64,000 nt of DNA. It comes from Bacilli bacterium. GTDB lineage: Bacteria; Bacillota_I; Bacilli_A; RFN20; UBA1709. Below, in pieces: positions 1 to 11,369 of the stretch (positions are counted from its first letter, which is position 1; the number at the start of each line of letters is the position of its first letter). The position numbers and the translations under genes were made by a program. The stretch covers positions 538,233 through 602,232 of the forward strand of contig JAXESU010000002.1 in NCBI GenBank assembly GCA_034115825.1, written 5' to 3'. The notes under the pieces were generated by a model that saw only the letters and a program-made list of their open reading frames with translations, was not told the DNA's origin and made no database searches.

Positions 1-1
1 T

Positions 2-841
2 GTTTGTGCGCTTTTATCAAAAGCTATAGGCAATAATCTAACTGCTATTTTTGTTAATCATGGTTTACTTCGTTTACATGAAGAAGATGAAGTAATTAAT
101 AACTTTAAAGATTTTAATTTAAACTTTAAATATGTTGATGCAAGTGAAAACTTTTTAAATAGACTTGCCGGAGTTATTGATCCAGAACAAAAACGTAAAA
201 TTATTGGTGATGAATTCATTAATGTTTTTGTAAATGAAGCTAATAAATTAGAAGGAATTAAATATTTAGCACAAGGTACTATTTATCCAGATATTATTGA
301 AAGTGGTACAAAATTCCATAAAGTTGTTAAATCTCACCATAACGTTGGTGGTCTTCCAGAAAAGTTAAACTTTAAATTAATTGAACCATTAAAAATGTTA
401 TTTAAAGATGAAGTTAGAGAAGTTGGAAGATATCTTGGTTTAAGTGATGATTTAGTCTCACGCCAACCTTTCCCAGGACCAGGACTTGGTGTTAGATGTT
501 TAAATGGTATTACAAAAGAAAAATTAAATTTATTAAAACAAGCTGACTATATTTTAAGAGAAGAAGTAAAGAAAAATAAATTAGATAAAGCTATTTGGCA
601 ATATTTCTGTGTTCTTCCATCTGTTAAAGCAGTTGGTGTAAGAAATAATAGTCGTAGCTATGAAGATGCTATTGTTATTAGAATGGTCAATAGTATTGAT
701 GCAATGAGCGCTAAATTCTATGAAATGGAATATGCTTTATTAAGACATATCTCATATCGTATTACTCATGAAGTAGTAGGTATTTCTCGTGTTTTATTAG
801 ATATTACTGATAAACCACTTGGAACAATTGAATTTGAGTAG
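2..841 (+). CDS. guaA: GMP synthase (glutamine-hydrolysing), C-terminal portion; 5-prime end lies outside the window
   Basis: Frame-2 translation from the window edge reads ...LTAIFVNHGLLRLHEEDEV...HHNVGGLPEKLNFKLIEPL...SRQPFPGPGLGVRC...ISYRITHEV..GTIEFE*. These are the ATP-pyrophosphatase and dimerisation-domain motifs of GuaA. Stop TAG at 839-841. Confidence 0.9.
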   Translation, partial: VCALLSKAIGNNLTAIFVNHGLLRLHEEDEVINNFKDFNLNFKYVDASENFLNRLAGVIDPEQKRKIIGDEFINVFVNEANKLEGIKYLAQGTIYPDIIESGTKFHKVVKSHHNVGGLPEKLNFKLIEPLKMLFKDEVREVGRYLGLSDDLVSRQPFPGPGLGVRCLNGITKEKLNLLKQADYILREEVKKNKLDKAIWQYFCVLPSVKAVGVRNNSRSYEDAIVIRMVNSIDAMSAKFYEMEYALLRHISYRITHEVVGISRVLLDITDKPLGTIEFE

Positions 842-866
842 AAATAATAATTAAAGATAAAGTATT

Positions 867-897
867 AACTATTGTAAGTCATACAACAGTTGTTTTT
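867..897 (+). terminator. weak intrinsic terminator candidate after guaA
   Basis: Hairpin aactattg / caacagtt (one mismatch) followed by GTTTTT. Confidence 0.3.
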
Positions 898-1149
898 AGT
901 ATGATTTTTATTAATTTAATATTGAAGATAAAGTTATGTATTGAATTATGATATATTATTAGTAAAGTTTTTAATTTAAAATATCGAGAATCGACATAAT
1001 ATATATTAAATAAAATTAAGTTTGAAATACAATTTGATTAGGAAAAAATTTATTTGTAAAAGTCTAGTTGTATTCAATATTCATTAAATTATTGAAAAAT
1101 AATAAATATCTTCACCCAAATGATTAAAAAACAGGAAAAGAGGGATAGC

Positions 1150-3300
1150 ATGAAAATAGATTTGCACTGTCATACTAAGAAAACTAAAAAAGGTGATCCT
1201 GATACAAGGGAAGTTGATGCCAAAACTTTTAGAGAATCTGTTTTAAGTGCAGGAGTAAAAATAGTAGCTATAACAAATCACAATGTTTTTGATATTAAAC
1301 AATATTATTCATTTGTTTCAATTGCTAGTGATGATTTTCAAGTTTGGCCAGGTATCGAACTAGACGTAGAAGGTGAAATTCAAAATGGTCATGTTATTAT
1401 TGTTAATAATCCAAAAACAGTAGGAGTTTTTGATGAAAAAGTAAAAGAATTGATTGGTGATAGAAATCCTGATGAAGTATTAATTAGTATTGATGAGTTA
1501 ATTTCTTTTTTTAGTGAATTAGATGCAATTGTATTACCGCATTATTATAAACCTAAGTCCTTAGATGAAAATTCTATAGAAAAAATTAAAGAGTCGATTA
1601 TTGATGATTATAGATTCTTTTATGAGCCAAGTAGTTATAGAACAATGGGTATTTTAATTAATCATAAACAATCTTCTTTAATGGGATCTGATGTAAAAGA
1701 TTGGAAAAAATACGATCAAAATATTTTTTCGGAATTAAAACTGGATGTTGATACTTTTGATCAGTTTATATTATTAGCTAAAAAAGATCCGATTTTAGTT
1801 GATACTTTATTACACAAGAAAAATCAAACTATGATTGATATTGGTTATAAAGGAACTGGAAAGAACAAAAAGTATTCTGTTGAGGAATACGCACCAATAT
1901 ATGATGATATAAATATTATTTTTGGAACTAAAGGAACTGGAAAAAGTAATGTGTTAGAGCAAGTTAAAAAGTATTATATATCTAAAAACATTGATTTTAG
2001 TTATTATACTCCAAACAACACAAATGATGAGATTAATTCAAAACTAAAAGTATTTGATTCAGAGAGATTATTAGAAAAGTATTCTCTAAAAAATTTTGCA
2101 AGTGAATTTGAAAAGATTTCCAATTGGACAGAAGCGTCTATTACTCAGTTAAAAGATTTCATTGATTATTCAAAGTGTACTAAAATTAGTAAGAACAAAG
2201 AAAAACTAAAAATATTAGATACCAATATTTTTCTTGATGTCAGTGAAAAAGAAATAGATAAACAAAAAAAATATTCAGAATCTTTAAATGATATTTGCTC
2301 AAAATTAGATAGTATAGAGTTAGAAAAACATCTTGATAGTACAGAAATAGAGACATTATATACTATTTTAGGCAAGATTAATTATAGTATATATTCATTT
2401 TTGAAAGAAGCATGGATTGATTATGAAACTAAAAAACATTCTAATTTTACTATTGAAATGATGAAAAAAATTGTTGAGGAAAATACAGAAACAAAAACTA
2501 AACCAAGTAAAACTGGATTGTTTGATTTTGTTAATAATAGATTAGAATTAATTATTAATGTTAATCAAGTATGTAAAGGATTTGAACATAATTTTGCTTG
2601 TTCACCTATTAAAATAGGTAAATTGGAAGAAAACAAGATTTTATATATGGTAACTAAACATAAAATGCTTGATTCAAAAAGTAAAACAGATGAATTTAAG
2701 CATAATATCACACAACTTAGAGAAACAAAAGATAATTTGTTTAAGTTACAAAAGCATCTTTTTGATGTAAATATCAATGAAATAATTAGAGAGTTAAGTG
2801 ATAATTTGACGAGTTATTCAATTTTATCACTTGATGATTTTCTTGGAGTAAAAAAGGTATTTACGTTAGAACCAACAAAATTAGATGAAATAGAAGAATA
2901 TATTCCATCTACTGGAGAAGCTACTATGATAATTTTACAGGAAAAATTGAATGATAATAAGGATGTATTTATTTTGGATGAACCGGAAAAAAGTTTAGGA
3001 AATACATATGTAAACGACATTATTGTACCTAAATTAGTAAGTTTAGCAAAATCTAGAAAAGTTATTATTGTAGTAACACATAATGCGAATATAGCAGTTC
3101 GTACTTTTCCCTATACTTCTATATTAAAAAAATACCAAGAAGGGAAATATGAAACTTTTATTGGTAATCCTTTCGTCGATAAATTAACACAAATTGGTAA
3201 TGAGAGTAATTGTTTAAATTGGAAAGAGGAAAGTATTAAGATTCTTGAGGGCGGAATACTTGCGTTTGACGAACGAGGTGAGATATATGGCAGAAAATAA
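1150..3300 (+). CDS. PHP-family metal-dependent phosphoesterase/nuclease domain fused to an ABC/AAA_21 (OLD-type) ATPase; candidate defence protein
   Basis: RBS AAGAGGGA lies 6 nt before ATG 1150 (the ORF track's ATG 1120 has no RBS). PHP motifs at the N-terminus: DLHCHT, AITNHN, GIELDV, GHVIIV, LPHYY, INHK. Walker A GTKGTGKS, preceded by a degenerate copy GYKGTGKN. About 360 aa of K/E/L-rich insertion follow, then signature-like PSTGEAT, Walker B VFILDEPE and H-loop VVTHNANI. Confidence 0.75.
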   Translation: MKIDLHCHTKKTKKGDPDTREVDAKTFRESVLSAGVKIVAITNHNVFDIKQYYSFVSIASDDFQVWPGIELDVEGEIQNGHVIIVNNPKTVGVFDEKVKELIGDRNPDEVLISIDELISFFSELDAIVLPHYYKPKSLDENSIEKIKESIIDDYRFFYEPSSYRTMGILINHKQSSLMGSDVKDWKKYDQNIFSELKLDVDTFDQFILLAKKDPILVDTLLHKKNQTMIDIGYKGTGKNKKYSVEEYAPIYDDINIIFGTKGTGKSNVLEQVKKYYISKNIDFSYYTPNNTNDEINSKLKVFDSERLLEKYSLKNFASEFEKISNWTEASITQLKDFIDYSKCTKISKNKEKLKILDTNIFLDVSEKEIDKQKKYSESLNDICSKLDSIELEKHLDSTEIETLYTILGKINYSIYSFLKEAWIDYETKKHSNFTIEMMKKIVEENTETKTKPSKTGLFDFVNNRLELIINVNQVCKGFEHNFACSPIKIGKLEENKILYMVTKHKMLDSKSKTDEFKHNITQLRETKDNLFKLQKHLFDVNINEIIRELSDNLTSYSILSLDDFLGVKKVFTLEPTKLDEIEEYIPSTGEATMIILQEKLNDNKDVFILDEPEKSLGNTYVNDIIVPKLVSLAKSRKVIIVVTHNANIAVRTFPYTSILKKYQEGKYETFIGNPFVDKLTQIGNESNCLNWKEESIKILEGGILAFDERGEIYGRK

Positions 3301-3607
3301 GTTTGTAAAAGTGAAATTAAATTGTATTGATGAGAAATATTTACTTGAGTTCAATTTATCAGAAGTTAAATCTATTAGTTTATATGATGAAAATATGGAA
3401 CAATTAAAAGAATTATTCACTCAAATTATGAAGGATTTAATCAAAAATAATTTAAAATTTAAATTAGAGATATCTGAAGAAGCTAAGAATGGCTCTAATC
3501 AATTGGCATGTGATGTCGCAATCACATATGTTGATAAATTGAACACTGAGATTGAGACATTAATTCAAACTGATAACTTAAAAGAAGTGCGAGAGCATTT
3601 TAGTTAA
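3287..3607 (+). CDS. small acidic hypothetical protein (106 aa), translationally coupled to the PHP-ATPase gene
   Basis: ATG 3287 is preceded by AGGTGA (6 nt) and overlaps the upstream stop (3298-3300) by 14 nt. MAENKFVKVKLNCIDEKYLLEF...; no recognisable motif. The upstream in-frame ATG at 3245 lies inside the ATPase gene without an RBS. Confidence 0.55.
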   Translation: MAENKFVKVKLNCIDEKYLLEFNLSEVKSISLYDENMEQLKELFTQIMKDLIKNNLKFKLEISEEAKNGSNQLACDVAITYVDKLNTEIETLIQTDNLKEVREHFS

Positions 3608-4371
3608 TTTGCTTTTTTGATTATTAGAAACTATCTATATAGACTATCATATAAGATTTAGTGAATATTATATTTTTAACGAATTTGTATGTATAAAAAT
3701 TAATAAAGTAATTATTTTTAAAAAGAAACATTTAAAATTAACTAAGCTAATTACAATATAATTATGATACTATTATTGTTAGTTTAGTGATTTTAATATG
3801 ATACTATTAGTTTGTTACAAGTATACGCATTGTAAAAAATATGTGACAAAAGTAGATGTTTTATATAGAAACAAACTTAATTTGGTTAGAGAAGATAGAA
3901 CTGTTAAGAGGGTTTGAATAGTACAATAGTATTTTATCTATTTTATGTGGTAAGTAGTTTATGGGATTGTTTGTTTTATTAAATATTTTTTAAGAATATT
4001 TATTTAAGTGCCAAAAATAAATATTAAAAAGATAAAAGTTAAGTATGAAAAAAAGTTTTACAGATGAGTTATAAGAAAATAATATGACGGTTATTTTGGG
4101 TAAAATGCTAGAATTAGAGAAAGAAAAGTATAAAGATAAACTAATAAATATAATTATATGAGTTATTGGTGGAAAAGGAGCTCTTATATCTATTGGTTTG
4201 TTATGTTATAGGTTAGTAAGAATAAACTTTTCTTAGATAGTATACTATCTACTTTATTGACATTCTTTTCGGACTTCTTTTAATACATACATTGATTATA
4301 TTGATTCAATTAATTGTATTAATGGTTCGGTTTATGGATTTAAAAAGATGAAGATATTGGAGGGATTTAAA

Positions 4372-4842
4372 ATGACAACCAAGGAAATAGTATACAAATA
4401 TGAAAAGAAAGTATTTAAAAGAGCTTTATTAACACATTTAAAACCAATTACAATTTCAACATTTAGTCAATGCTTTATTGCTATGGTTTGTGGCTTTATT
4501 TACCTTAATGCTTATATGAATAATGATATTGTTTTATTCAATATTACTGCAATACCAGCGATGATTTGCTTACTTGGGGCAGGTATTGGATTAGTAATTT
4601 ACATTATCTTTTTTAAAAATTTATTAATAACAGCATATAATTGGTCATATGATCATTACCTAACTATTGATAATAATCAAGTAGTATTATTACTAAAATC
4701 GAGTGATGGTTTAAAAGAAGAAAAATATAAATTTCCGATTAAAAAAATTAAATTGGAGAAAGATAATTATTTAATTTTTAAGAATAATAATCATTTTGTT
4801 TATGTTCCAAAAGAACTTTTTGATGCTAGTAAGCAAGATTAA
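4372..4842 (+). CDS. small membrane protein, YcxB-like (two TM helices plus a bacterial PH-like domain)
   Basis: GGAGGG lies 8 nt before ATG 4372. Hydrophobic segments FIAMVCGFIYL and AIPAMICLLGAGIGLVIYIIFF are followed by a soluble C-terminal domain. Confidence 0.55.
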   Translation: MTTKEIVYKYEKKVFKRALLTHLKPITISTFSQCFIAMVCGFIYLNAYMNNDIVLFNITAIPAMICLLGAGIGLVIYIIFFKNLLITAYNWSYDHYLTIDNNQVVLLLKSSDGLKEEKYKFPIKKIKLEKDNYLIFKNNNHFVYVPKELFDASKQD

Positions 4843-4941
4843 TTATATTAAAAATTTTGATTATTTAAGTACATATAGAAGAGTATGTAAATAGAAGTAA
4901 GTTCAAAATAATGCATAACTTAATTAGTTAAATGTAATAAT

Positions 4942-4980
4942 AAAAAACAGTTACTGTAATGTTACAGTAGCTGTTTTTTT
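4942..4980. terminator. bidirectional rho-independent terminator between the convergent YcxB-like gene and cat
   Basis: aaaaaa-CAGTTACTGTAAT-GTTACAGTAGCTG-ttttttt; a 13-bp stem with one G-T pair, flanked by an A-run and a T-run. Confidence 0.7.
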
Positions 4981-5002
4981 AACTAAATATTATCTATATA
5001 TT

Positions 5003-5623
5003 TTATTTAAAATGATTAATTAATTCTTGTAAAGTATTTATAAATTTTCCAACATGATAGCCATCACAAACAGCGTGATGAACTTGAATAGCAAGAGGGA
5101 TAAAACGTTGATTATTATTTTCAAAAAATTTGCCGAAGGTAAAAATAGGTAATAAATATTTTCCATCATTATAAATATTGATGTTAAATGATGTAAAAGT
5201 AAACCATGGAATCATCGATACATCAAACGTATTTAATGGACGATCTTTTTTTGGCTCAAATGAAGTAGTATTTAAATATTTTTTTAAATCTTGATGATAA
5301 TTTTCTAAAAACACACGATAGTCATCATTATATAAAGTATAAATTGAAGAAAAAGTTTCACTTTCTTTATTAAAAATAGTATATGCTGGATTCATTTTAT
5401 CAAAAATAACTAACTTATCATTAATTGAAGTTGTTTTAAATTCATCAATGTTATTTATTGTTTTAGTTAATAAATAAAGAAGGGTAGGATATAATTTAAA
5501 ATTTTTAAGATTAGTAATATCTAGATTAACTACTGTTGAATATGTGCAAGGACACTTTGTAGTATAATGCTTAAAGTGTTCTTTTCTTTTATAAGTATTT
5601 AAATCAATTTCTTTATAATTCAT
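5003..5623 (-). CDS. cat: type A chloramphenicol O-acetyltransferase
   Basis: MNYKEIDLNTYKRKEHFKHY...SMIPWFTFTSFNINI...PLAIQVHHAVCDGYHVGKF: the classic CAT N-terminus and the HHAVCDGYH catalytic-His motif. RBS AAAGGA lies before ATG 5623; the ORF-track extension MKERKKV has no RBS. Confidence 0.9.
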   Translation of the reverse strand: MNYKEIDLNTYKRKEHFKHYTTKCPCTYSTVVNLDITNLKNFKLYPTLLYLLTKTINNIDEFKTTSINDKLVIFDKMNPAYTIFNKESETFSSIYTLYNDDYRVFLENYHQDLKKYLNTTSFEPKKDRPLNTFDVSMIPWFTFTSFNINIYNDGKYLLPIFTFGKFFENNNQRFIPLAIQVHHAVCDGYHVGKFINTLQELINHFK

Positions 5624-6656
5624 AACTTTTTTCCTTTCTTTCAATGCTATTTATATAACAGTTTAATTCCTTAAAAGTAAGATTAGCAGGTAAGTGATTA
5701 AATATTGTAGTAGGACTATTTTTCCCGCCACGAAGGCTAATATAATAATCAATAATTGATTCTTTAGCTTCGTTTAATGAGGAATACTCATGAATTCCTT
5801 TTGTTTCACTATTTGCGGTTTCAAGATGATAATATTTATTATTTAATTTATAAATAACAAAGCAATGCATGTGTTCATTTTCATCAAAGTTATTAAATGT
5901 TTCATCTTCGTAAATTCGACAACAATATAAATAGTTTTTAACTTTTATTTTGTTAAGCAAATAGTGAATTAAATAAGCTTGTTCAATACAAGTTCCACAT
6001 CTATATTTAAAAATTGCTTTTAAAGACATTGTTCGATAAAGAAGACGGAAACCTTTCATTTCTTTATTACTATGATAAATTTTATTGTTATCAATAAAAC
6101 CATAACTAATATTATTGCTAATAAAATTATAAATATCTCTTGGAGTTTTAATATTTTCAATTTTATTATAAAAAGAAGGAGAATAGTCAAAGGAGATACG
6201 TTTATCACCATTTGCTAAATAAATGGTTCCACATTGTTTAAATCCATAATTAAAGAGTGCTTTTTGCATTACTAAATTGTCTTTGTGAGTATCGATTCGT
6301 AAATAATTACATTTAGTTAGACAATAGTTAAAAATCTTTCTTGTAATATTAGGTATATTTGATTTTTTAGCAACTTTATGAATGACTCCATATTGCTCAT
6401 TTTTATTCCAGTTTCCTTCAATATAATCGTAGGTTGGATCATTAGTTATCGCAAAAGAAAAGCAGGCTTCAATATTATCATTTTCCTTTAAAATATATAA
6501 AATTTTCTTTTTTATATCATTTAAGATCATTTCTTTAGTCGGATATCCTTTTTGCCATTGATTAATATTGTTTGTTATAACCATAAAGTTTTGGGCATAT
6601 ACATATATTTCCATGATTTTATCAATATCTTTTTTAGTTGCTTTTTTAATAATCAT
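5613..6656 (-). CDS. fusion protein: N-terminal GNAT acetyltransferase plus a C-terminal papain-fold Cys-His-Asp/Glu domain (arylamine-NAT-like / transglutaminase-like)
   Basis: N-terminal approx. 150 aa GNAT-like (MIIKKATKKDIDKIMEIY...IHKVAKKSN..ITRKIFNYCL). C-terminus YRCGTCIEQAYLIHYLL (R-x-G-x-C-x-E, as in the NAT RGGYCFE motif), HMHCFVIY, YHLETAN. Stop overlaps the cat start by 11 nt. A TATAAT -10 box lies immediately upstream, and GGTGA before ATG 6656. Confidence 0.65.
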   Translation of the reverse strand: MIIKKATKKDIDKIMEIYVYAQNFMVITNNINQWQKGYPTKEMILNDIKKKILYILKENDNIEACFSFAITNDPTYDYIEGNWNKNEQYGVIHKVAKKSNIPNITRKIFNYCLTKCNYLRIDTHKDNLVMQKALFNYGFKQCGTIYLANGDKRISFDYSPSFYNKIENIKTPRDIYNFISNNISYGFIDNNKIYHSNKEMKGFRLLYRTMSLKAIFKYRCGTCIEQAYLIHYLLNKIKVKNYLYCCRIYEDETFNNFDENEHMHCFVIYKLNNKYYHLETANSETKGIHEYSSLNEAKESIIDYYISLRGGKNSPTTIFNHLPANLTFKELNCYINSIERKEKSYEL

Positions 6657-6790
6657 TTTTATCACCATTTATTATTATACCTTAATTTATTTAATGTATT
6701 AAATAATATTTACAATTTTATACTCATTTACTATAATAGATATAATTACTATCGACAAAAGTAATTAGTTAGAAAGAAGGAAGTAAAATT

Positions 6791-7891
6791 ATGAATAAGT
6801 ATTATGATAATTTTGAAATCACATCTTTAGACACAGAAATTTTAGAAGAAAAAGATGGCTATTATGTTTTTAAAGACACTATTTTTTATGGTGAAAAAGG
6901 TGGAATGCCAAGTGATGAAGGAACAATTAATGGTTTAGAAGTAGTTGAATTAAAATATGATGGTGACACTTTACTTCATAAAGTAAATGGAACTTTAACT
7001 AATCCAATTCATATGGAAGTTAATAAAGAAGTACGTGAAATTAACACTTCTGTTCAAACAGCTTTCCATATTTTAGATGGTTACTATGCTAAAAGAGGTC
7101 AATATTTACCTGCTGTAGGAGTTCATCCAAATAATCAATGGTTTGAAGTAAATAGTAAAGATATTACTAAAGAAGATTTAATGGAAGTTCAAGAATTTAT
7201 GAACAAAGTTATTGATGATGATGTTAAAGTTACTTTTGAGTACATTAATGGAAAAGATTACTATAATGAAAAGTATCAACATTATGATTTAGTACGTATT
7301 GTTAATATTGGTGATTTAGATAGTCAACCATGTGGAACTCTTCATCTAAATCATACTTCACAAATTAAAAGTTTTGTTATTTTAGACTTTGAAAAAACAA
7401 GTAAAGGTACAAGAGTTTATACTTGTGTAAATAAAGTTTGTGATGAACATTTAAAAAATTATTATAATTTATTAAAAGAAACAGGTAAAATTTTAGGTGT
7501 TAAAAAAGAAGAAGTAATTGAAAAAGCTAGTGAAGTAACTGCTTCCAATAAAGCTTTAAAGAAAGAAGTTCAAGATCTTAAAAAAGAATTGATGGATTTA
7601 AAAGCTAACTCCATTTTACAAGACGAAAATTTAATGTATAAGTATGAAACTAGTGATGCTAATGATTTACGTCTAATTGGTCAAAGTTTAATGAATCGTG
7701 TAAATGGTAATAAAATAGTTTATGCCTTAATTAATGATGAAATTAACTTTGCAATTGTTTCTTCAAGCAATGAAGCTCGTAATTATTTAGAAAAAGTTAA
7801 AACTTTAGGCAATGTCATTGGTGGAGGTTCTCCTAAAATTGTTACTGCTAAAGTAAAAGCAAATGAAGAAGACTTCTTAAATTTATTTTAG
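6791..7891 (+). CDS. alaX: AlaX-L type alanyl-tRNA editing protein (AlaRS editing-domain homologue with a DHHA1-like C-terminus)
   Basis: Zn motifs VQTAFHILDG and QPCGTLHLNHT (HxxxH ... CxxxH), a coiled-coil linker, and C-terminal GNVIGGGSP like the AlaRS C-terminal domain. Confidence 0.7.
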   Translation: MNKYYDNFEITSLDTEILEEKDGYYVFKDTIFYGEKGGMPSDEGTINGLEVVELKYDGDTLLHKVNGTLTNPIHMEVNKEVREINTSVQTAFHILDGYYAKRGQYLPAVGVHPNNQWFEVNSKDITKEDLMEVQEFMNKVIDDDVKVTFEYINGKDYYNEKYQHYDLVRIVNIGDLDSQPCGTLHLNHTSQIKSFVILDFEKTSKGTRVYTCVNKVCDEHLKNYYNLLKETGKILGVKKEEVIEKASEVTASNKALKKEVQDLKKELMDLKANSILQDENLMYKYETSDANDLRLIGQSLMNRVNGNKIVYALINDEINFAIVSSSNEARNYLEKVKTLGNVIGGGSPKIVTAKVKANEEDFLNLF

Positions 7892-7895
7892 TAAT

Positions 7896-7927
7896 TAAGT
7901 GAACTAATATTAGTTCACTTTTTTGTT
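7896..7927 (+). terminator. intrinsic terminator after alaX
   Basis: AAGTGAACTA-atat-TAGTTCACTT followed by TTTTTGTTT. Confidence 0.65.
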
Positions 7928-7964
7928 TAATGTGAAAGTTTTAACAACTTTGTGAAAAAACTTA

Positions 7965-8019
7965 TTGAAAAGCACAATATCTTTTTTTATAATATAAATG
8001 TAAGTCAAACTGACATTTA
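7965..8019 (+). promoter_or_regulatory. sigma-A-type promoter (TTGAAA-17-TATAAT) plus an imperfect 25-bp palindrome between -10 and RBS; likely TetR operator
   Basis: TTGAAA 7965-7970, TATAAT 7988-7993. TAAATGTAAGTCAAACTGACATTTA at 7995-8019 (symmetric except for 2 positions). Confidence 0.5.
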
Positions 8020-8039
8020 TTACAAAGGAGATTATAATT

Positions 8040-8657
8040 ATGTCTTTATTAGATGTTCGCAATCAAAATATTGAAAAAGTTACTAAAGAAGCTTTAAAGA
8101 TGTTTGTAAGTAAAGGAATAGAGAATAGTAAAGTAAGTGATATTGCTAAAAATTGTGATTTAGCAGAGCGCTCATTATTTCGATATTTTCCGACTAAAGC
8201 TGATTTAGTATTAGCGGCAGCAAAGTTGTTTTGGCATGAAATGGTTAAAAATTCATATAATGTATTAACTCAAATCGATAATTCTTTAGATGGTATTGAT
8301 CAACTATCAATTGTTGTCAAAACTTATGCCCATCAATTTTTTGATAATAAAGAAAAATTAATATTTGTTCAAGAAAGTGAAGTTTATTTATATCGATATA
8401 ATAAAGGAATATTAAATCCTGTTGATTTATTAAATAATCAAGATGCTCCTATGTATCAAGTGATACAAAAAGGAGTTAAAGATGGTTCAATAAAAAATCA
8501 AAATATTGAAGAATTATATCTAATAGTTTATGACAGTTTATTAGGGTTTATGCAAAAAATGGCTACAGGAATATATGCTAAATCACTAAGTAAAGCTGAA
8601 CAATTGCAATATTTAAATCTTTTTTGTGAAATGTTAGTTAATTCATTTAGAAAATAA
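8040..8657 (+). CDS. TetR/AcrR family transcriptional regulator
   Basis: N-terminal HTH: VSDIAKNCDLAERSLFRYFPTKADL. RBS AAAGGAG. Confidence 0.8.
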   Translation: MSLLDVRNQNIEKVTKEALKMFVSKGIENSKVSDIAKNCDLAERSLFRYFPTKADLVLAAAKLFWHEMVKNSYNVLTQIDNSLDGIDQLSIVVKTYAHQFFDNKEKLIFVQESEVYLYRYNKGILNPVDLLNNQDAPMYQVIQKGVKDGSIKNQNIEELYLIVYDSLLGFMQKMATGIYAKSLSKAEQLQYLNLFCEMLVNSFRK

Positions 8658-8670
8658 AGGAGAGGAAAAA

Positions 8671-10206
8671 ATGAATAATGTATATGATTGCATCATTATT
8701 GGTGGAGGTAATGGTGGACTTGCTAGTTGTGCCACATTAGCTAAAGAAGGTAAAAAAGTTATTTTATTTGAAAAACATAATATTCCCGGTGGATGTGGGA
8801 CAAGTTTTAGAAGGGGACGTTTTGAGTTTGAAGTTGCCCTACATCAATTAAGTAGTATGGGTACAAAAGAAAAACCAGGACCTTTAAGAGAACAATTTAG
8901 ACGTTATGGTATTGAAGATCAAATTGATTGGATTGAAATAAAAGAATTATTTAGAGTTAATTTTCCTGATGGAACTGGTGTTAGTTTACCTGCTGATAAA
9001 GAAAAATGTATTGATTTTTTAAGTAAAGAATTCCCTAATGAAAAAGAAAATATTAAACGTTATTTTGATGTTGTTTATAAGTTTTGTTTTGAAGCTAATG
9101 ATTTTGCAAGCAAAAGTGCTAAAAGTAGTAAAGAACCAAATGCCCTTAAAAAAGGTGTAATGAAATTTGCTTTCCCTAAAAAATATAAAACTTTAGCTAA
9201 TTATGGTCTAAAATCAACTCAAGAAGTTTTAGATGAATTTTTTAAAGATCAAAAATTACAATTAGCTTTAAGTGCATATTGGTGCTTTATGGGAGTTCCA
9301 CCTAAACGTTTCCCGTTTTCGATTTTAGCTAAATGTACGTGTTTTTATTTAGAAGATAAACCATTTTATTTAAAAGGAACATCAATGATGATGAACCAAG
9401 CTATTATGGATGCAAGTATTAAAATGGGGGCAACTGTTAAACTTAATTGTGGTGTTAAAAAGATTATCGTTAAAAATAATGAAGCTGTTGGAGTTGTTTT
9501 AGAAAATGGCGAAAAATATTATGCTAAAAAAATTATTTCTAATATTTCTCCATTACATACTTATGGAGCTTTGATGGATAAAGAAGATGTACCAGAAAGC
9601 GCTCGAGAATATTTAAAACCATATACAGTTGGTATTAGCGCATTAACATGTTTTATTGGTTTAGATTGTCCACCGAGTGAAATTGGTTTTAAAACATCAT
9701 TTACATTAAATTATAAGTCGATGGATGCTAACAATGATTTTAAAGATGCTTATAAATTATTACCGGAAAATGATCCACTTGTAGCTACTTGTTATACGGT
9801 TGATGATGAAAGTGTTTCACCAAAAGGAACGAGTGTTATTACAGCAGGTGTTTTAAAATATGCAACTGAATGGGAAAAATTAACAGCTGAACAATATTAT
9901 GAAGCTAAATATGAAGCTGGTAAACGAATCGTAGACCGACTTGAAGAAATGTATCCAGGATTTAAGAGTCATATTGAAGAAATGGAAATTGCTACTCCAT
10001 TAACTCATATGCGCTATTTAAACCATCCAGGAGGCGCAATTTATGGCTATGAACAAGACTTAAATCAATCAGTCTTTTTCTTTCCATCTGAAAGTAAAAT
10101 TAAAAATTTAGAATTTGCTAGTGGCTGGGTTAATGCTTGTGGATTTGGGCCTAACTATATGTATGCTGATAAAATTGCATTAAAAGTAGCAAAGGAGATT
10201 AAATAA
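8671..10206 (+). CDS. FAD-dependent oxidoreductase of the phytoene-desaturase / NAD(P)-FAD amine-oxidase-like family
   Basis: DCIIIGGGNGGLASCATLAKEGKKVILFEKHNIPGGCGTSF: dinucleotide-binding GxGxxG followed by the GG motif. Confidence 0.75.
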   Translation: MNNVYDCIIIGGGNGGLASCATLAKEGKKVILFEKHNIPGGCGTSFRRGRFEFEVALHQLSSMGTKEKPGPLREQFRRYGIEDQIDWIEIKELFRVNFPDGTGVSLPADKEKCIDFLSKEFPNEKENIKRYFDVVYKFCFEANDFASKSAKSSKEPNALKKGVMKFAFPKKYKTLANYGLKSTQEVLDEFFKDQKLQLALSAYWCFMGVPPKRFPFSILAKCTCFYLEDKPFYLKGTSMMMNQAIMDASIKMGATVKLNCGVKKIIVKNNEAVGVVLENGEKYYAKKIISNISPLHTYGALMDKEDVPESAREYLKPYTVGISALTCFIGLDCPPSEIGFKTSFTLNYKSMDANNDFKDAYKLLPENDPLVATCYTVDDESVSPKGTSVITAGVLKYATEWEKLTAEQYYEAKYEAGKRIVDRLEEMYPGFKSHIEEMEIATPLTHMRYLNHPGGAIYGYEQDLNQSVFFFPSESKIKNLEFASGWVNACGFGPNYMYADKIALKVAKEIK

Positions 10207-11369
10207 TGAAAAAGGGAATTAAAGAAACATTACTAGGAACACTAGTACATGGAAAAGAAGTTTTAAATAATATAGATGTCTTACGTAAAACAAGTAATGA
10301 TAAAATTGTTGAATATAATTTAGCTGATAATGTTATTAATAAATTACATCAAAAAGAATTACATTTAGTTGTTAATGAAATAATTGATACTCATAAAAAT
10401 GCTAAAATATTTCGTTTAGTAAGTGAAGATAATTACTTACCTCCTTTTGAAGCAGGGCAATATATTAATTTATTTGTTGAGATTGATGGAGTTTATACAT
10501 CTAGACCATATAGTATTTCTTCATCACCACTTCAAAGAGCTTATTATGAAGTTACTATTGCAAGAGTTAATGATGGATTTGTTTCTTCTTACTTTTTAGA
10601 TAAAGTTAAAGTAGGTGATAAATTAATTGCTAATGGTCCAAGTGGAGTATTTCATTATAATAAAGTATTTCATTCACCTAAAGCACTTTTTATTGCTGGT
10701 GGTAGTGGAATTACACCATTTATGTCAATGTTACGTGAAATTTTAAGCGCTAAACATGACCGTGATGTTGTTTTACTTTACGGTTGTCCAGAACTTAAAA
10801 ATGCCTTATATCATGATGAATTAACATATTTAAGTAAAACATATAATAACTTTAAATATCATTTAGTTTTATCAAATGAAGTTAATAAAGATTATGAGCA
10901 TGGATTTATTTCTAAAGAATTAATTACTAAATTAGTTAAAGATTATAATGAAAGAACTAGTTATATTTGTGGGCCACAAGTTATGAATGCTTTTGTCGAA
11001 AGTAATTTAAAAGAATTAAATGTACCACTTAAACAGATTCGAAGAGAAATGTTTTCATCAAATAAAAATGTTATTAAAGAAGAAGGTTTCCCTAAATCAT
11101 TAACGGGGGAAGAAGTATTTAATGTTAAAGTAAATGACCAAATGATAAAAGCTAAAGCAAATGAATCATTATTAGTTGCTTTAGAAAGAAACCATATTAG
11201 AGTTAATGTATGCTGCCGAAGTGGGGAATGTAGTTTATGTAGAGTAAAACTTGTTAAAGGTAAAGTATATTTAGCAAAAGGTATTTTACTACGTAAAGCT
11301 GATGAAAAATTTGGTTATATTCATTCTTGTAAAGCTTATCCATTAACTGATCTTGAAATTATGTTATAA
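10206..11369 (+). CDS. ferredoxin-NAD(P) reductase-type oxidoreductase with a C-terminal plant-type 2Fe-2S ferredoxin domain
   Basis: RPYSISS (FAD-binding RxYS), GGSGITPF (NAD-binding), CCRSGECSLCRV...C (2Fe-2S). Start overlaps the upstream stop. Confidence 0.75.
   Translation: MKKGIKETLLGTLVHGKEVLNNIDVLRKTSNDKIVEYNLADNVINKLHQKELHLVVNEIIDTHKNAKIFRLVSEDNYLPPFEAGQYINLFVEIDGVYTSRPYSISSSPLQRAYYEVTIARVNDGFVSSYFLDKVKVGDKLIANGPSGVFHYNKVFHSPKALFIAGGSGITPFMSMLREILSAKHDRDVVLLYGCPELKNALYHDELTYLSKTYNNFKYHLVLSNEVNKDYEHGFISKELITKLVKDYNERTSYICGPQVMNAFVESNLKELNVPLKQIRREMFSSNKNVIKEEGFPKSLTGEEVFNVKVNDQMIKAKANESLLVALERNHIRVNVCCRSGECSLCRVKLVKGKVYLAKGILLRKADEKFGYIHSCKAYPLTDLEIML

What the first reader, a model, noticed from the sequence alone, without database searches (positions are those of the whole stretch)
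5003..6668. cat gene translationally coupled to an unusual GNAT + NAT/transglutaminase-like fusion protein
SEEN: a two-gene minus-strand operon with its own promoter (TATAAT directly upstream). Gene 1 is about 347 aa: an N-terminal GNAT and a C-terminal papain-fold domain with R-x-G-x-C-x-E (YRCGTCIEQAY, cf. arylamine N-acetyltransferase RGGYCFE), then HMHCF and YHLETAN. That is a Cys-His-Asp/Glu triad in the order expected for NAT/transglutaminase-like enzymes. Its stop overlaps the start of a canonical type-A chloramphenicol acetyltransferase (HHAVCDGYH). KNOWN: CATs are xenobiotic acetyltransferases; NAT and GNAT enzymes acetylate arylamines and aminoglycosides. INFERENCE: a three-acyltransferase-domain module, possibly a composite resistance/xenobiotic-modification cassette; the fusion partner could modify a second drug or a chloramphenicol metabolite.
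Basis: partly seen in the sequence, partly recalled or inferred. Interest (0 to 1): 0.6.

Follow-up and report, generated by a model that had tools for sequence, protein, structure and literature searches.

The report
GNAT–transglutaminase-like fusion gene upstream of cat
A gut bacterium carries a chloramphenicol-acetyltransferase-type gene whose start overlaps the end of an acetyltransferase-like gene that, in this lineage only, has a widespread but unstudied cysteine-enzyme module joined to it in frame; the three parts sit together through local history and are not a conserved resistance machine.

Summary
On the minus strand, a 351/347-aa ORF (6668/6656..5613) overlaps by 11 nt a 206-aa CatA-type gene (5623..5003), and a hairpin plus U-tract terminator follows.

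- **N-terminal half:** a GNAT-fold protein of unknown substrate.
- **C-terminal ~180 aa:** a confidently modelled transglutaminase/papain-fold module (pLDDT 94). Cys227 and His268 are kept in 85 of 85 homologues and Glu283 in 84 of 85.

The "three-acyltransferase resistance cassette" reading is only partly supported.

- A syntenic sister genome has the same GNAT–cat overlap but no Cys module.
- None of 80 genomes carrying the module has a cat gene within 6 kb.
- None of 80 nearest relatives of this GNAT has the module or a cat gene within 3 kb.
- The module was not found on 72,556 plasmids or 50,697 phages.

The module is mostly a stand-alone ~175-aa protein of gut Firmicutes, which NCBI names "transglutaminase domain-containing protein". 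It has been fused independently to many small enzymes. Its biochemical function is unknown. Interest is moderate to low.

The parts
6674..6702 (-). Promoter-like site: TTAATA, 17 nt spacer, TATAAT. It lies 5 nt upstream of ATG 6668 and 17 nt upstream of ATG 6656.
   Evidence: 10 of 12 matches. Such sites are not enriched over shuffles in this AT-rich region. A TGTATAAT occupies the same position in sister locus L081.
5613..6668 (-). Gene 1, the GNAT::transglutaminase-like fusion. It is 351 aa from ATG 6668; the alternative start, used by NCBI, is ATG 6656 (347 aa), preceded by GGTGAT.
   Evidence: It is identical to P0001, 'MAG: hypothetical protein SO253_03570 [Bacilli bacterium]'.
6183..6656 (-). 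GNAT-fold domain (residues about 5-162). The subfamily carries QW..GYP and RIDTHKDN motifs.
   Evidence: phmmer hits to 3h4q (E = 4.7e-9) and 2pc1 (E = 8.5e-9). Family alignment A4. 72% identical to the stand-alone GNAT of the sister locus.
5637..6182 (-). Transglutaminase-like Cys-His-Glu module (residues about 163-344). It is present in the window and absent from the sister genome's orthologous gene, so it is an in-frame indel.
   Evidence: for fold and conservation. for the indel against L081.
5988..5990 (-). Codon of Cys227 (TGT), the predicted nucleophile. It sits at the N-terminus of a helix in the model.
   Evidence: Conserved in 85 of 85 homologues. Model helix spans domain residues 63-76.
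5865..5867 (-). Codon of His268 (CAT) in the HMHCF motif.
   Evidence: Conserved in 85 of 85 homologues. It starts the strand at domain residues 104-111.
5820..5822 (-). Codon of Glu283 (GAA), the predicted third member of the triad.
   Evidence: Conserved in 84 of 85 homologues. It ends the strand at domain residues 114-119. It is in register with the NAT Asp in the weak GdmF alignment.
5613..5637 (-). Coupling region: the Shine-Dalgarno-like AAAGGAA (5637-5631), the cat ATG (5623-5621), and the 11-nt overlap ATGAATTATAA that ends in gene 1's TAA (5615-5613).
   Evidence: The same overlap is found in the sister locus, with AAGGAGG as the Shine-Dalgarno site.
5003..5623 (-). catA-type O-acetyltransferase gene (206 aa).
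   Evidence: Pfam CAT 247.5 bits. NCBIfam chloram_CatA 267.6 bits against a cut-off of 270. CATIII structure 3cla at E = 8.4e-53.
4939..4978 (-). Intrinsic terminator: A-tract, 7+7 bp interrupted hairpin, U-tract. It is possibly bidirectional, because it faces the convergent gene at 4348-4842.
   Evidence: minimum free energy -17.3 kcal/mol, z-score -4.2, 0 of 200 shuffles as stable. It is missed by the consensus scan, which requires at least 3 G-C pairs. It is conserved in L081.

Best explanation
This is a chromosomal bicistronic unit in a low-G+C gut Bacilli genome.

**Expression (inferred).** One promoter drives a transcript that ends at a hairpin terminator. The first cistron encodes a two-domain protein. 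The second is a CatA-type acetyltransferase whose start codon lies 11 nt inside the end of the first cistron. cat also has its own Shine-Dalgarno site, so it can be translated both by coupling and by independent initiation.

**History (shown by comparison).** The GNAT belongs to a subfamily that is normally a stand-alone protein of about 165 aa. In the common ancestor of this genome and a sister genome, the GNAT gene became overlapped with cat. Later, in this lineage, a complete copy of a widespread stand-alone gene of about 175 aa was joined in frame between the GNAT core and its short tail that overlaps cat. That gene encodes the 'transglutaminase domain-containing protein'.

**Biochemistry (inferred).**
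- The added module is a cytoplasmic papain/transglutaminase-fold enzyme.
- Its Cys227-His268-Glu283 triad most likely forms a thioester (acyl-enzyme) intermediate and hydrolyses, or possibly transfers, an amide or peptide bond. It would act like a small cysteine peptidase or amidase of the CPR-C4/vasohibin type.
- It most likely works independently of cat.
- The CAT most likely acetylates chloramphenicol by the standard His195 general-base mechanism.
- The substrates of the GNAT and of the Cys module are unknown.
For: **Operon anatomy**
- ORFs, the 11-nt overlap and the Shine-Dalgarno site.
- Terminator with z-score -4.2.
- The -10 element, the overlap and the terminator are all conserved in sister locus L081.

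**CAT**
- Pfam E = 1.6e-73.
- Best NCBIfam model is CatA, 267.6 bits.
- 182 bits to CATIII, with Arg18, Ser148, His195 and Asp199 equivalents aligned.

**History**
- Sister locus L081/L082 is syntenic: guaA, cat, GNAT, tRNA_SAD, TetR, amine oxidase and an FAD/Fer2 reductase.
- Its upstream gene is the GNAT only, 72% identical, with the tail ...FDYYKEENHYEL*. The window has ...FDY[182 aa]KEKSYEL*.
- The query's GNAT half finds no GNAT of other GNAT-module fusions at E < 1e-5.
- The 80 nearest GNAT relatives carry no module and no cat. Of 79 complete ORFs, 72 are 140-199 aa.

**Module**
- Model pLDDT 94.
- Foldseek: CPR-C4 E = 2e-5.
- Homologues pass the Pfam thresholds of Transglut_core and DUF553.
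- Triad conservation: Cys 85/85, His 85/85, Glu 84/85, plus many other conserved polar residues.
- About 65 of 80 genome hits are stand-alone genes of about 175-185 aa. NCBI names them 'transglutaminase domain-containing protein'.

**Independence from cat**
- 0 of 80 module loci have a cat gene.
- No neighbour family occurs in more than 9 of 80 loci.
- Other close CATs (60-64% identical) are solitary genes in unrelated contexts.
Against: - No activity was measured for any of the three domains.
- The direction of the indel rests on parsimony with one sister genome plus outgroups. A precise in-frame deletion in the sister is not excluded. A 7-nt ATTGAAA repeat lies near both borders (6161-6155 and 5645-5639), but recombination there would not reproduce the sister's sequence exactly.
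- Hydrolase versus acyltransferase chemistry cannot be told from the fold. The triad spacing (Cys to His 41, His to Glu 15) is NAT-like, B. cereus NAT3 also uses Cys-His-Glu, and GNATs are the commonest fusion partner. That could mean functional cooperation with acetyl transfer.
- The query departs from the family consensus at three nearly invariant positions (Trp191 to Phe, His284 to Thr, Pro285 to Ala), so its module might be impaired.
- This GNAT subfamily lacks the canonical Q/R-x-x-G-x-G/A acetyl-CoA loop.
- CAT scores 2.4 bits below NCBI's CatA cut-off, and NCBI names it 'CatA-like'.
Confidence: 0.55

Rival explanations
1. The three domains form an integrated xenobiotic or antibiotic acylation cassette. 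The C-terminal module would be a NAT-like, Cys-dependent acetyl or acyl transferase that modifies a second drug or a chloramphenicol metabolite and cooperates with the GNAT and CAT.
For: - The Cys-His-Glu order and spacing match NAT. A weak alignment to the NAT-family enzyme GdmF puts Cys, His and Glu in register (E = 0.74, not significant).
- Homologues give sub-threshold Pfam NAT hits (17 bits against a 22.8 cut-off).
- Fusion partners and neighbours of the module come from superfamilies that include resistance enzymes: GNAT, APH, VanXY-like, CPT/Gar-like kinases and MBL fold.
- The reading frames of gene 1 and cat are physically coupled.
Against: - The sister genome keeps GNAT-cat without the module.
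- 0 of 80 module loci contain cat, and 0 of 80 GNAT-relative loci contain the module or cat.
- There are no plasmid or phage copies.
- None of the partner domains reaches any NCBIfam resistance-equivalog cut-off.
Confidence: 0.12
2. The module acts on proteins and not on small molecules. It could be a self-processing or partner-processing cysteine peptidase, or a selfish in-frame cassette. Its repeated grafting onto unrelated enzymes would then reflect insertion at gene ends and not shared chemistry with the partner.
For: - Independent fusions exist at N-terminal, C-terminal and internal positions of at least 10 unrelated families: several GNAT subfamilies, AAA_33 kinases, VanY, APH, MBL fold, HD, NUDIX, ASCH, methyltransferase and peptidase MA/S41/S51.
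- Two sister genomes differ by presence or absence of the module, with the frame and downstream coupling preserved.
- The nearest solved structures are proteases (PMC9108980).
- A large serine recombinase lies within three genes of the module in 7 of 80 loci.
Against: - About 80% of genome copies are ordinary stand-alone genes.
- Fusion partners mirror the families of neighbouring genes (AAA_33, GNAT, NUDIX). That is what simple read-through fusions of adjacent genes would give.
- No terminal repeats or mobility genes lie at the window's junctions.
- The module is absent from the phage and plasmid collections.
- No cleavage-site motif is evident.
Confidence: 0.1
3. The ancestral gene was a GNAT-module fusion, and the sister genome lost the module by a precise in-frame deletion. 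The fusion would then be older, and possibly functionally tied to the cat unit.
For: - GNAT-module proteins of the same length (for example P0002, 347 aa) are common.
- Short AT-rich repeats (ATTGAAA) lie near both borders of the module.
- The sister's tail YKEENH resembles both junction sequences of the window.
Against: - Those other fusions use a different GNAT subfamily, with no hit to the query's GNAT half at E < 1e-5.
- All 80 nearest relatives of this GNAT lack the module.
- Recombination at the ATTGAAA repeats would leave 179 aa, not the sister's 172 aa.
Confidence: 0.15

Closest known systems
Type A chloramphenicol O-acetyltransferase (CatA; CATIII structure 3cla; Pfam PF00302; NCBIfam NF000491)
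   Same: - Full-length match.
- 182 bits to CATIII, with Arg18, Ser148, His195 and Asp199 equivalents and the HHAVCDG motif.
- Size of 206 aa.
   Different: - It scores 267.6 bits against the 270-bit equivalog cut-off, and NCBI names it 'CatA-like'.
- It is chromosomal, with no leader-peptide attenuator. Its start is buried in the end of an upstream ORF.
- The nearest relatives are 75%, 64% and about 60% identical, all in uncultured gut Firmicutes.
CPR-C4 (7pjo/7ob7) and the vasohibins: transglutaminase-like cysteine proteases (Cornish et al. 2022, PMC9108980)
   Same: - A small cytoplasmic single-domain Cys/His enzyme.
- A family of hypothetical proteins with no conserved gene neighbours.
   Different: - No sequence relation is detectable: the profile of the module finds nothing in the PDB at E <= 10.
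- The third triad member is a conserved Glu side chain (84/85), 15 residues after the His. CPR-C4 and the vasohibins use a Leu backbone carbonyl, 22 residues after the His.
- The Cys-to-His spacing is 41 here against 32.
- The host group differs: gut Firmicutes, not the Candidate Phyla Radiation.
Arylamine N-acetyltransferases (NAT; PF00797), including B. cereus NAT3 and the amide synthase GdmF
   Same: - The Cys ... His ... (15 residues) ... acid spacing is shared, and NAT3 uses Cys-His-Glu.
- The G-x-C-x-E motif is similar.
   Different: - Only about 120 of 250-290 NAT residues align, and the third (lid) domain is absent.
- The Pfam NAT model is not reached.
- Proteases are clearly closer in structure.
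Pfam Transglut_core (PF01841) and DUF553 (PF04473) transglutaminase-like domains
   Same: - Homologues of the module pass these models' thresholds over the Cys-His region (P0051 31.1 bits; P0103 32.8 bits).
- NCBI names cultured members 'transglutaminase domain-containing protein'.
   Different: - The window's own protein matches no Pfam or NCBIfam model even at E <= 1.
- The family is a tight, separate cluster, about 50% identical between Clostridia and Bacilli.
- It has extra conserved motifs (YGW.D..G..H, FR.LYRT.S, EHMHCF, EHPN) that existing models do not cover.
GNAT-fold proteins 3h4q and 2pc1 (structural-genomics 'putative acetyltransferases')
   Same: Sequence-level homology over residues 6-152, including the shared QW..YP motif.
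   Different: - The substrate of the whole subfamily is unknown.
- The query and its relatives lack the canonical Q/R-x-x-G-x-G/A loop.
- Pfam GNAT models do not detect the query.

Membership tests
Type A chloramphenicol acetyltransferase (CatA) | Full-length match to the CAT fold family (PF00302) | tested here: met
   247.5 bits against a 23.5 cut-off, covering residues 1-199 of 206.
Type A chloramphenicol acetyltransferase (CatA) | Catalytic His195 in HHAVCDG, Ser148, and the Arg18/Asp199 pair | tested here: met
   All are aligned and identical in the CATIII (3cla) alignment.
Type A chloramphenicol acetyltransferase (CatA) | NCBIfam equivalog score of at least 270 bits (NF000491) | tested here: not met
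   267.6 bits, which is 2.4 bits short. The next model, CatA_like_3, gives only 136 bits against a 275 cut-off. The case is borderline.
Type A chloramphenicol acetyltransferase (CatA) | Confers chloramphenicol resistance or acetylates chloramphenicol | not testable with these tools
   Needs MIC and enzyme assays.
GNAT superfamily | Sequence or fold homology to GNAT domains | tested here: met
   phmmer hits to 3h4q (E = 4.7e-9), 2pc1 (E = 8.5e-9) and 2fia (E = 2.8e-4). Pfam GNAT models do not hit the query itself.
GNAT superfamily | Acetyl-CoA pyrophosphate-binding loop Q/R-x-x-G-x-G/A (motif A) | tested here: not met
   The query has VAKKSNIPNITRKI and the sister has VAKKSNIKKMTKII. Relatives also lack the Gly signature, whereas 2pc1 has FRGRGLA. 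Cofactor binding is therefore unproven.
Arylamine N-acetyltransferase (NAT, PF00797) | Cys-His-Asp/Glu triad in that order with NAT-like spacing | tested here: met
   Cys227, His268 and Glu283, with spacings of 41 and 15. Conserved in 85/85, 85/85 and 84/85 homologues.
Arylamine N-acetyltransferase (NAT, PF00797) | Match to the NAT family model | tested here: not met
   No hit for the query. Homologues reach 17.1-17.3 bits against a 22.8 cut-off.
Arylamine N-acetyltransferase (NAT, PF00797) | Three-domain architecture of about 250-290 aa, with a C-terminal alpha/beta lid domain | tested here: not met
   [not shown]
Transglutaminase-like / papain-like cysteine enzyme superfamily | Core fold with Cys at a helix N-terminus and His plus an acid on adjacent beta-strands | tested here: met
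   [not shown]
Transglutaminase-like / papain-like cysteine enzyme superfamily | Pfam Transglut_core or DUF553 threshold | tested here: inconclusive
   Not reached by the query. Reached by homologues P0051, P0040, P0103 and P0056, and by 12 of 60 multidomain representatives.
CPR-C4 / vasohibin family | Close structural similarity | tested here: met
   [not shown]
CPR-C4 / vasohibin family | Non-canonical Cys-His-Leu(carbonyl) triad | tested here: not met
   The family here conserves a Glu side chain 15 residues after the His. CPR-C4 uses C61, H93 and L115.
CPR-C4 / vasohibin family | Detectable sequence relationship | tested here: not met
   The profile of alignment A1 finds no PDB chain at E <= 10.
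CPR-C4 / vasohibin family | Peptidase activity | not testable with these tools
   Needs fluorogenic peptide or casein assays with a Cys227Ala control.

The most novel reading that the evidence does not exclude
The ~175-aa 'transglutaminase domain-containing protein' of gut Firmicutes may be an unrecognised enzyme family. It has 1507 clusters at 50% identity, and the window's own copy matches no Pfam or NCBIfam model.

It combines a CPR-C4/vasohibin-like fold with a NAT-like Cys-His-Glu register and a strongly conserved polar pocket. It may act as a portable thiol-dependent deacylase or peptidase that evolution has repeatedly bolted onto detoxification-type enzymes: GNAT, APH, VanXY-like, P-loop kinases and NUDIX.

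On this reading, the window shows a recent graft caught in the act, because the sister genome lacks it. The graft would create a new bifunctional enzyme co-expressed with cat.
Probability: 0.15. Interest if true: 0.6.

Novelty: new variant of a known kind. Interest (0 to 1): 0.35.

Why it matters
**For resistance surveillance.** The practical point is modest. This is one more chromosomal, non-mobile catA-type gene in an uncultured gut Bacilli genome. It sits just under NCBI's calling threshold and is expressed through an unusual overlap with an upstream ORF, not through the classical leader-peptide attenuator.

**For protein science.** The more useful by-product is a well-defined and experimentally tractable family of small Cys-His-Glu enzymes.
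- It is highly conserved: about 50% identity between Clostridia and Bacilli, with members in Clostridium botulinum, Eisenbergiella and Roseburia.
- Its function is unknown.
- It is structurally linked to CPR-C4 and the vasohibins.
- It is repeatedly fused to small modifying enzymes.

The window and its sister locus form a natural pair, with and without the module, for testing what the module adds.

Tried and rejected
- **Pfam and NCBIfam on gene 1:** nothing at E <= 1, apart from one meaningless 10-bit hit.
- **PADLOC on gene 1:** nothing.
- **Profile of the module against PDB sequences:** no hit at E <= 10. Only fold comparison worked.
- **AlphaFold-database fold search (afdb50):** the library was not available.
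- **Consensus terminator scan:** 0 sites, because it requires at least 3 G-C pairs. The hairpin was found by folding instead.
- **Rfam on window 1-9000:** no family, so no riboswitch or attenuator.
- **Exact DNA pattern of the cat 5' end in metagenome contigs:** no match.
- **tblastn of the module against plasmids and phages:** no match.
- **NCBIfam on ten fusion partners:** only sub-threshold, generic hits (VanXY, Gar-like kinase, MutT, TehB). Partner identity does not reveal a substrate.
- **Neighbour clustering around 80 module genes:** no family occurs in more than 9 loci, so there is no conserved operon partner.
- **Literature:** nothing on this family. One relevant paper on CPR-C4.
- **Considered and rejected:**
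  - A mobile resistance cassette: composition equals the genome's, the locus is a syntenic chromosomal one, and there are no plasmid hits.
  - Membership of the NAT family (see membership tests).
  - A lasso-peptide B-type protease: no precursor or cyclase neighbours were seen.
- **Not attempted:** a full-length two-domain structure model. No homologue shares both domains, so the orientation between the domains would be uninformed.
Full report
**1. What is in the sequence**

The minus strand of 5003-6668 holds two long ORFs in a 24% G+C region.
- Gene 1 runs from ATG 6668 to TAA 5613 (351 aa). The alternative ATG at 6656 gives 347 aa, is preceded by GGTGAT, and is the start NCBI uses for the identical protein.
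- That protein is P0001, "MAG: hypothetical protein SO253_03570 [Bacilli bacterium]", on a 674-kb contig.
- The cat start codon is at 5623. It aligns with Met1 of CATIII.
- Gene 1 ends TAT GAA TTA TAA, so the two frames share the 11 nt ATGAATTATAA. An AAAGGAA Shine-Dalgarno-like site lies 8 nt upstream of the cat ATG.
- A TTAATA-17-TATAAT promoter-like site lies at 6702-6674. In this AT-rich DNA such matches are no more frequent than in shuffles (23 against 20.7 +/- 5.0), so it counts only because a TGTATAAT sits at the same place in a related genome.
- Downstream of cat, an A-tract, hairpin and U-tract at about 4978-4939 folds far better than shuffles (z = -4.2, 0 of 200). It is also conserved.
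- No Rfam family, and so no known attenuator, lies in 1-9000.

**2. The three domains**

*cat.*
- Pfam CAT at E = 1.6e-73 over the full length.
- The best NCBIfam model is type-A CatA, at 267.6 bits against a cut-off of 270. NCBI accordingly names it "CatA-like O-acetyltransferase".
- It scores 182 bits against CATIII, with Arg18, Ser148, His195 and Asp199 equivalents intact.

*N-terminal half of gene 1.*
- It matches no Pfam GNAT model.
- It is homologous to GNAT-fold crystal structures 3h4q and 2pc1 (E = 5e-9 to 9e-9, residues 6-152).
- Its subfamily has QW..GYP and RIDTHKDN motifs and lacks the usual Q/R-x-x-G-x-G/A loop.
- No member has a known substrate.

*C-terminal ~180 residues.*
- They hit nothing in Pfam or NCBIfam.
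- With an alignment of 31 homologues, AlphaFold2 gives a confident model (pLDDT 94, pTM 0.90).
- Foldseek agrees: CPR-C4 at E = 2e-5, then vasohibins, then B. cereus NAT3.
- Among 85 homologues, Cys227 and His268 are invariant and Glu283 is present in 84. Tyr189, Gly190, His199, Tyr211, Gly225 and Gln230 are also invariant.
- In the model, the Cys starts a helix, and the His and Glu lie on consecutive strands.
- Some homologues pass the Pfam thresholds of Transglut_core or DUF553. The NAT model stays below threshold.
- A non-significant phmmer alignment to the NAT-family enzyme GdmF puts Cys, His and Glu in register with NAT's Cys, His and Asp.

However, the module is half the size of a NAT, lacks its lid domain, and is closer in structure to small cysteine proteases. 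CPR-C4 was shown to be a protease with a Cys-His-Leu(carbonyl) triad (PMC9108980). The family here keeps a Glu side chain instead.

**3. What the module is elsewhere**

- A profile search of 1.84 billion representative proteins finds 1507 clusters at E <= 1e-3 and 687 at E <= 1e-10.
- In one genome per species, 182 loci encode it. Of the best 80, about 65 are stand-alone genes of about 175-185 aa. They occur in Lachnospiraceae, other Clostridia, Erysipelotrichaceae and uncultured Bacilli.
- Cultured carriers include Clostridium botulinum, C. intestinale, Eisenbergiella tayi and Roseburia yibonii. There NCBI names it "transglutaminase domain-containing protein" or "hypothetical protein".
- The remainder are fusions at either end or in the middle of unrelated enzymes. 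Partners are several GNAT subfamilies, ASCH, AAA_33/CPT-like kinases, VanXY-like peptidases, APH, MBL fold, HD, NUDIX, methyltransferases and peptidases MA/S41/S51.
- None of the ten partners tested reaches a curated NCBIfam cut-off.
- Neighbours of the stand-alone genes come from the same assortment of small enzymes. No neighbour family recurs in more than 9 of 80 loci.
- The module is absent from 72,556 plasmids and 50,697 phages.

**4. Is the pairing with cat conserved?**

- No cat lies within 6 kb of the module in any of the 80 loci.
- The closest CAT (P0108, 75% identical) lies in a locus that is syntenic with the window. The shared genes are guaA, cat, the upstream ORF, an AlaX-like tRNA_SAD gene, TetR, an amine oxidase and an FAD/Fer2 reductase.
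- There, the ORF that overlaps cat by the identical 11 nt is only 172 aa. It is the GNAT alone, 72% identical to query residues 1-163, and ends ...FDYYKEENHYEL*. The window has ...FDY-[182 residues]-KEKSYEL*.
- More distant CATs (64% and about 60% identical) are solitary genes in unrelated contexts.
- The query's GNAT half does not recognise the GNATs of other GNAT-module fusions.
- Its 80 nearest relatives in metagenomes (38-46% identical) have neither the module nor cat within 3 kb. Of 79 complete ORFs, 72 are 140-199 aa.

The most parsimonious history therefore has three steps. The GNAT began as a stand-alone gene. It then became coupled to cat in the ancestor of the window and sister genomes. 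The module was then acquired in frame in the window's lineage. A precise deletion in the sister is the less likely alternative.

**5. Mechanism**

*Shown or directly read:*
- the operon layout;
- the overlap and the Shine-Dalgarno site;
- the terminator;
- the domain folds;
- the conserved triad;
- the lineage-specific presence of the module.

*Inferred:*
- the two genes are co-transcribed from the conserved -10 element;
- cat is translated by coupling plus its own Shine-Dalgarno site;
- CAT acetylates chloramphenicol;
- the module forms a Cys227 thioester and hydrolyses (less likely, transfers) an amide or peptide bond, on a conserved but unknown substrate, independently of cat.

*Caveats:*
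- The window's copy departs from the consensus at three nearly invariant positions (Trp191 to Phe, His284 to Thr, Pro285 to Ala).
- GNATs are the commonest fusion partner. This leaves room for cooperation with acetyl transfer.

**6. Verdict**

The proposed integrated three-acyltransferase resistance cassette is not supported. The arrangement is a local, recent mosaic on a chromosome, and the cat gene is an ordinary, borderline-scoring CatA homologue.

What remains of interest is the module family itself: well conserved, uncharacterised, CPR-C4/vasohibin-like in fold with a NAT-like triad, and prone to fusion. I rate the finding as a new variant of a known kind, with interest 0.35.

Noticed in passing
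window 1120-4842 (+): A block of about 4 kb lies between guaA (395-841) and the cat terminator and is absent from the syntenic sister locus L081, where the cat terminator is followed directly by guaA. It holds a 726-aa protein with a PHP-like N-terminus (DLHCHT) and an ATPase domain that matches the PADLOC candidate defence family PDC-M49A (E = 9e-29), plus two small ORFs with no family (3245-3607 and 4348-4842). It is a likely defence-island insertion.
   Followed up: partly
window 3607-4348: A stretch of about 740 nt has no ORF of 100 aa or more, the lowest G+C of the region (0.20) and the highest GC skew (0.51). It has no Rfam match.
   Followed up: partly
P0083-P0102 (homologues of gene 1 residues 6-163): The same GNAT subfamily (QW..GYP, RIDTHKDN) is fused to a C-terminal GAF domain in a large set of proteins of about 304-347 aa. 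It is also fused to a membrane domain (P0085) and to a second GNAT plus a Cys-rich CPCC domain (P0084). The subfamily lacks the canonical acetyl-CoA loop motif.
   Followed up: partly
L064-L077 (for example L065:5434-6894); cluster of P0056: A recurrent 478-aa GNAT-module-ASCH three-domain protein occurs in uncultured Bacilli (cluster of 239 members, seen on 90 or more contigs). It always follows a 251-aa gene, which it overlaps by 1 to 25 nt.
   Followed up: no
L037 and six other module loci: A large serine-recombinase-like gene (about 535 aa) lies two or three genes from the module in 7 of 80 loci, and a phage-lysin-like gene in 6. Some copies may therefore sit in integrated elements, although no phage or plasmid record carries the module.
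   Followed up: no
P0380, P0385, P0411, P0416, P0435, P0440: The module also occurs inside very large proteins of 1021-1476 aa, sometimes with two or three matched stretches. Their other domains were not examined.
   Followed up: no
window 6791-11369 (+) and L081: Next to the operon there is conserved synteny of an AlaX-like tRNA_SAD protein (366 aa), a TetR regulator, a 511-aa flavin amine-oxidase-like protein and a 387-aa FAD/NAD/2Fe-2S reductase. This looks like a TetR-controlled oxidoreductase pair of unknown substrate.
   Followed up: no
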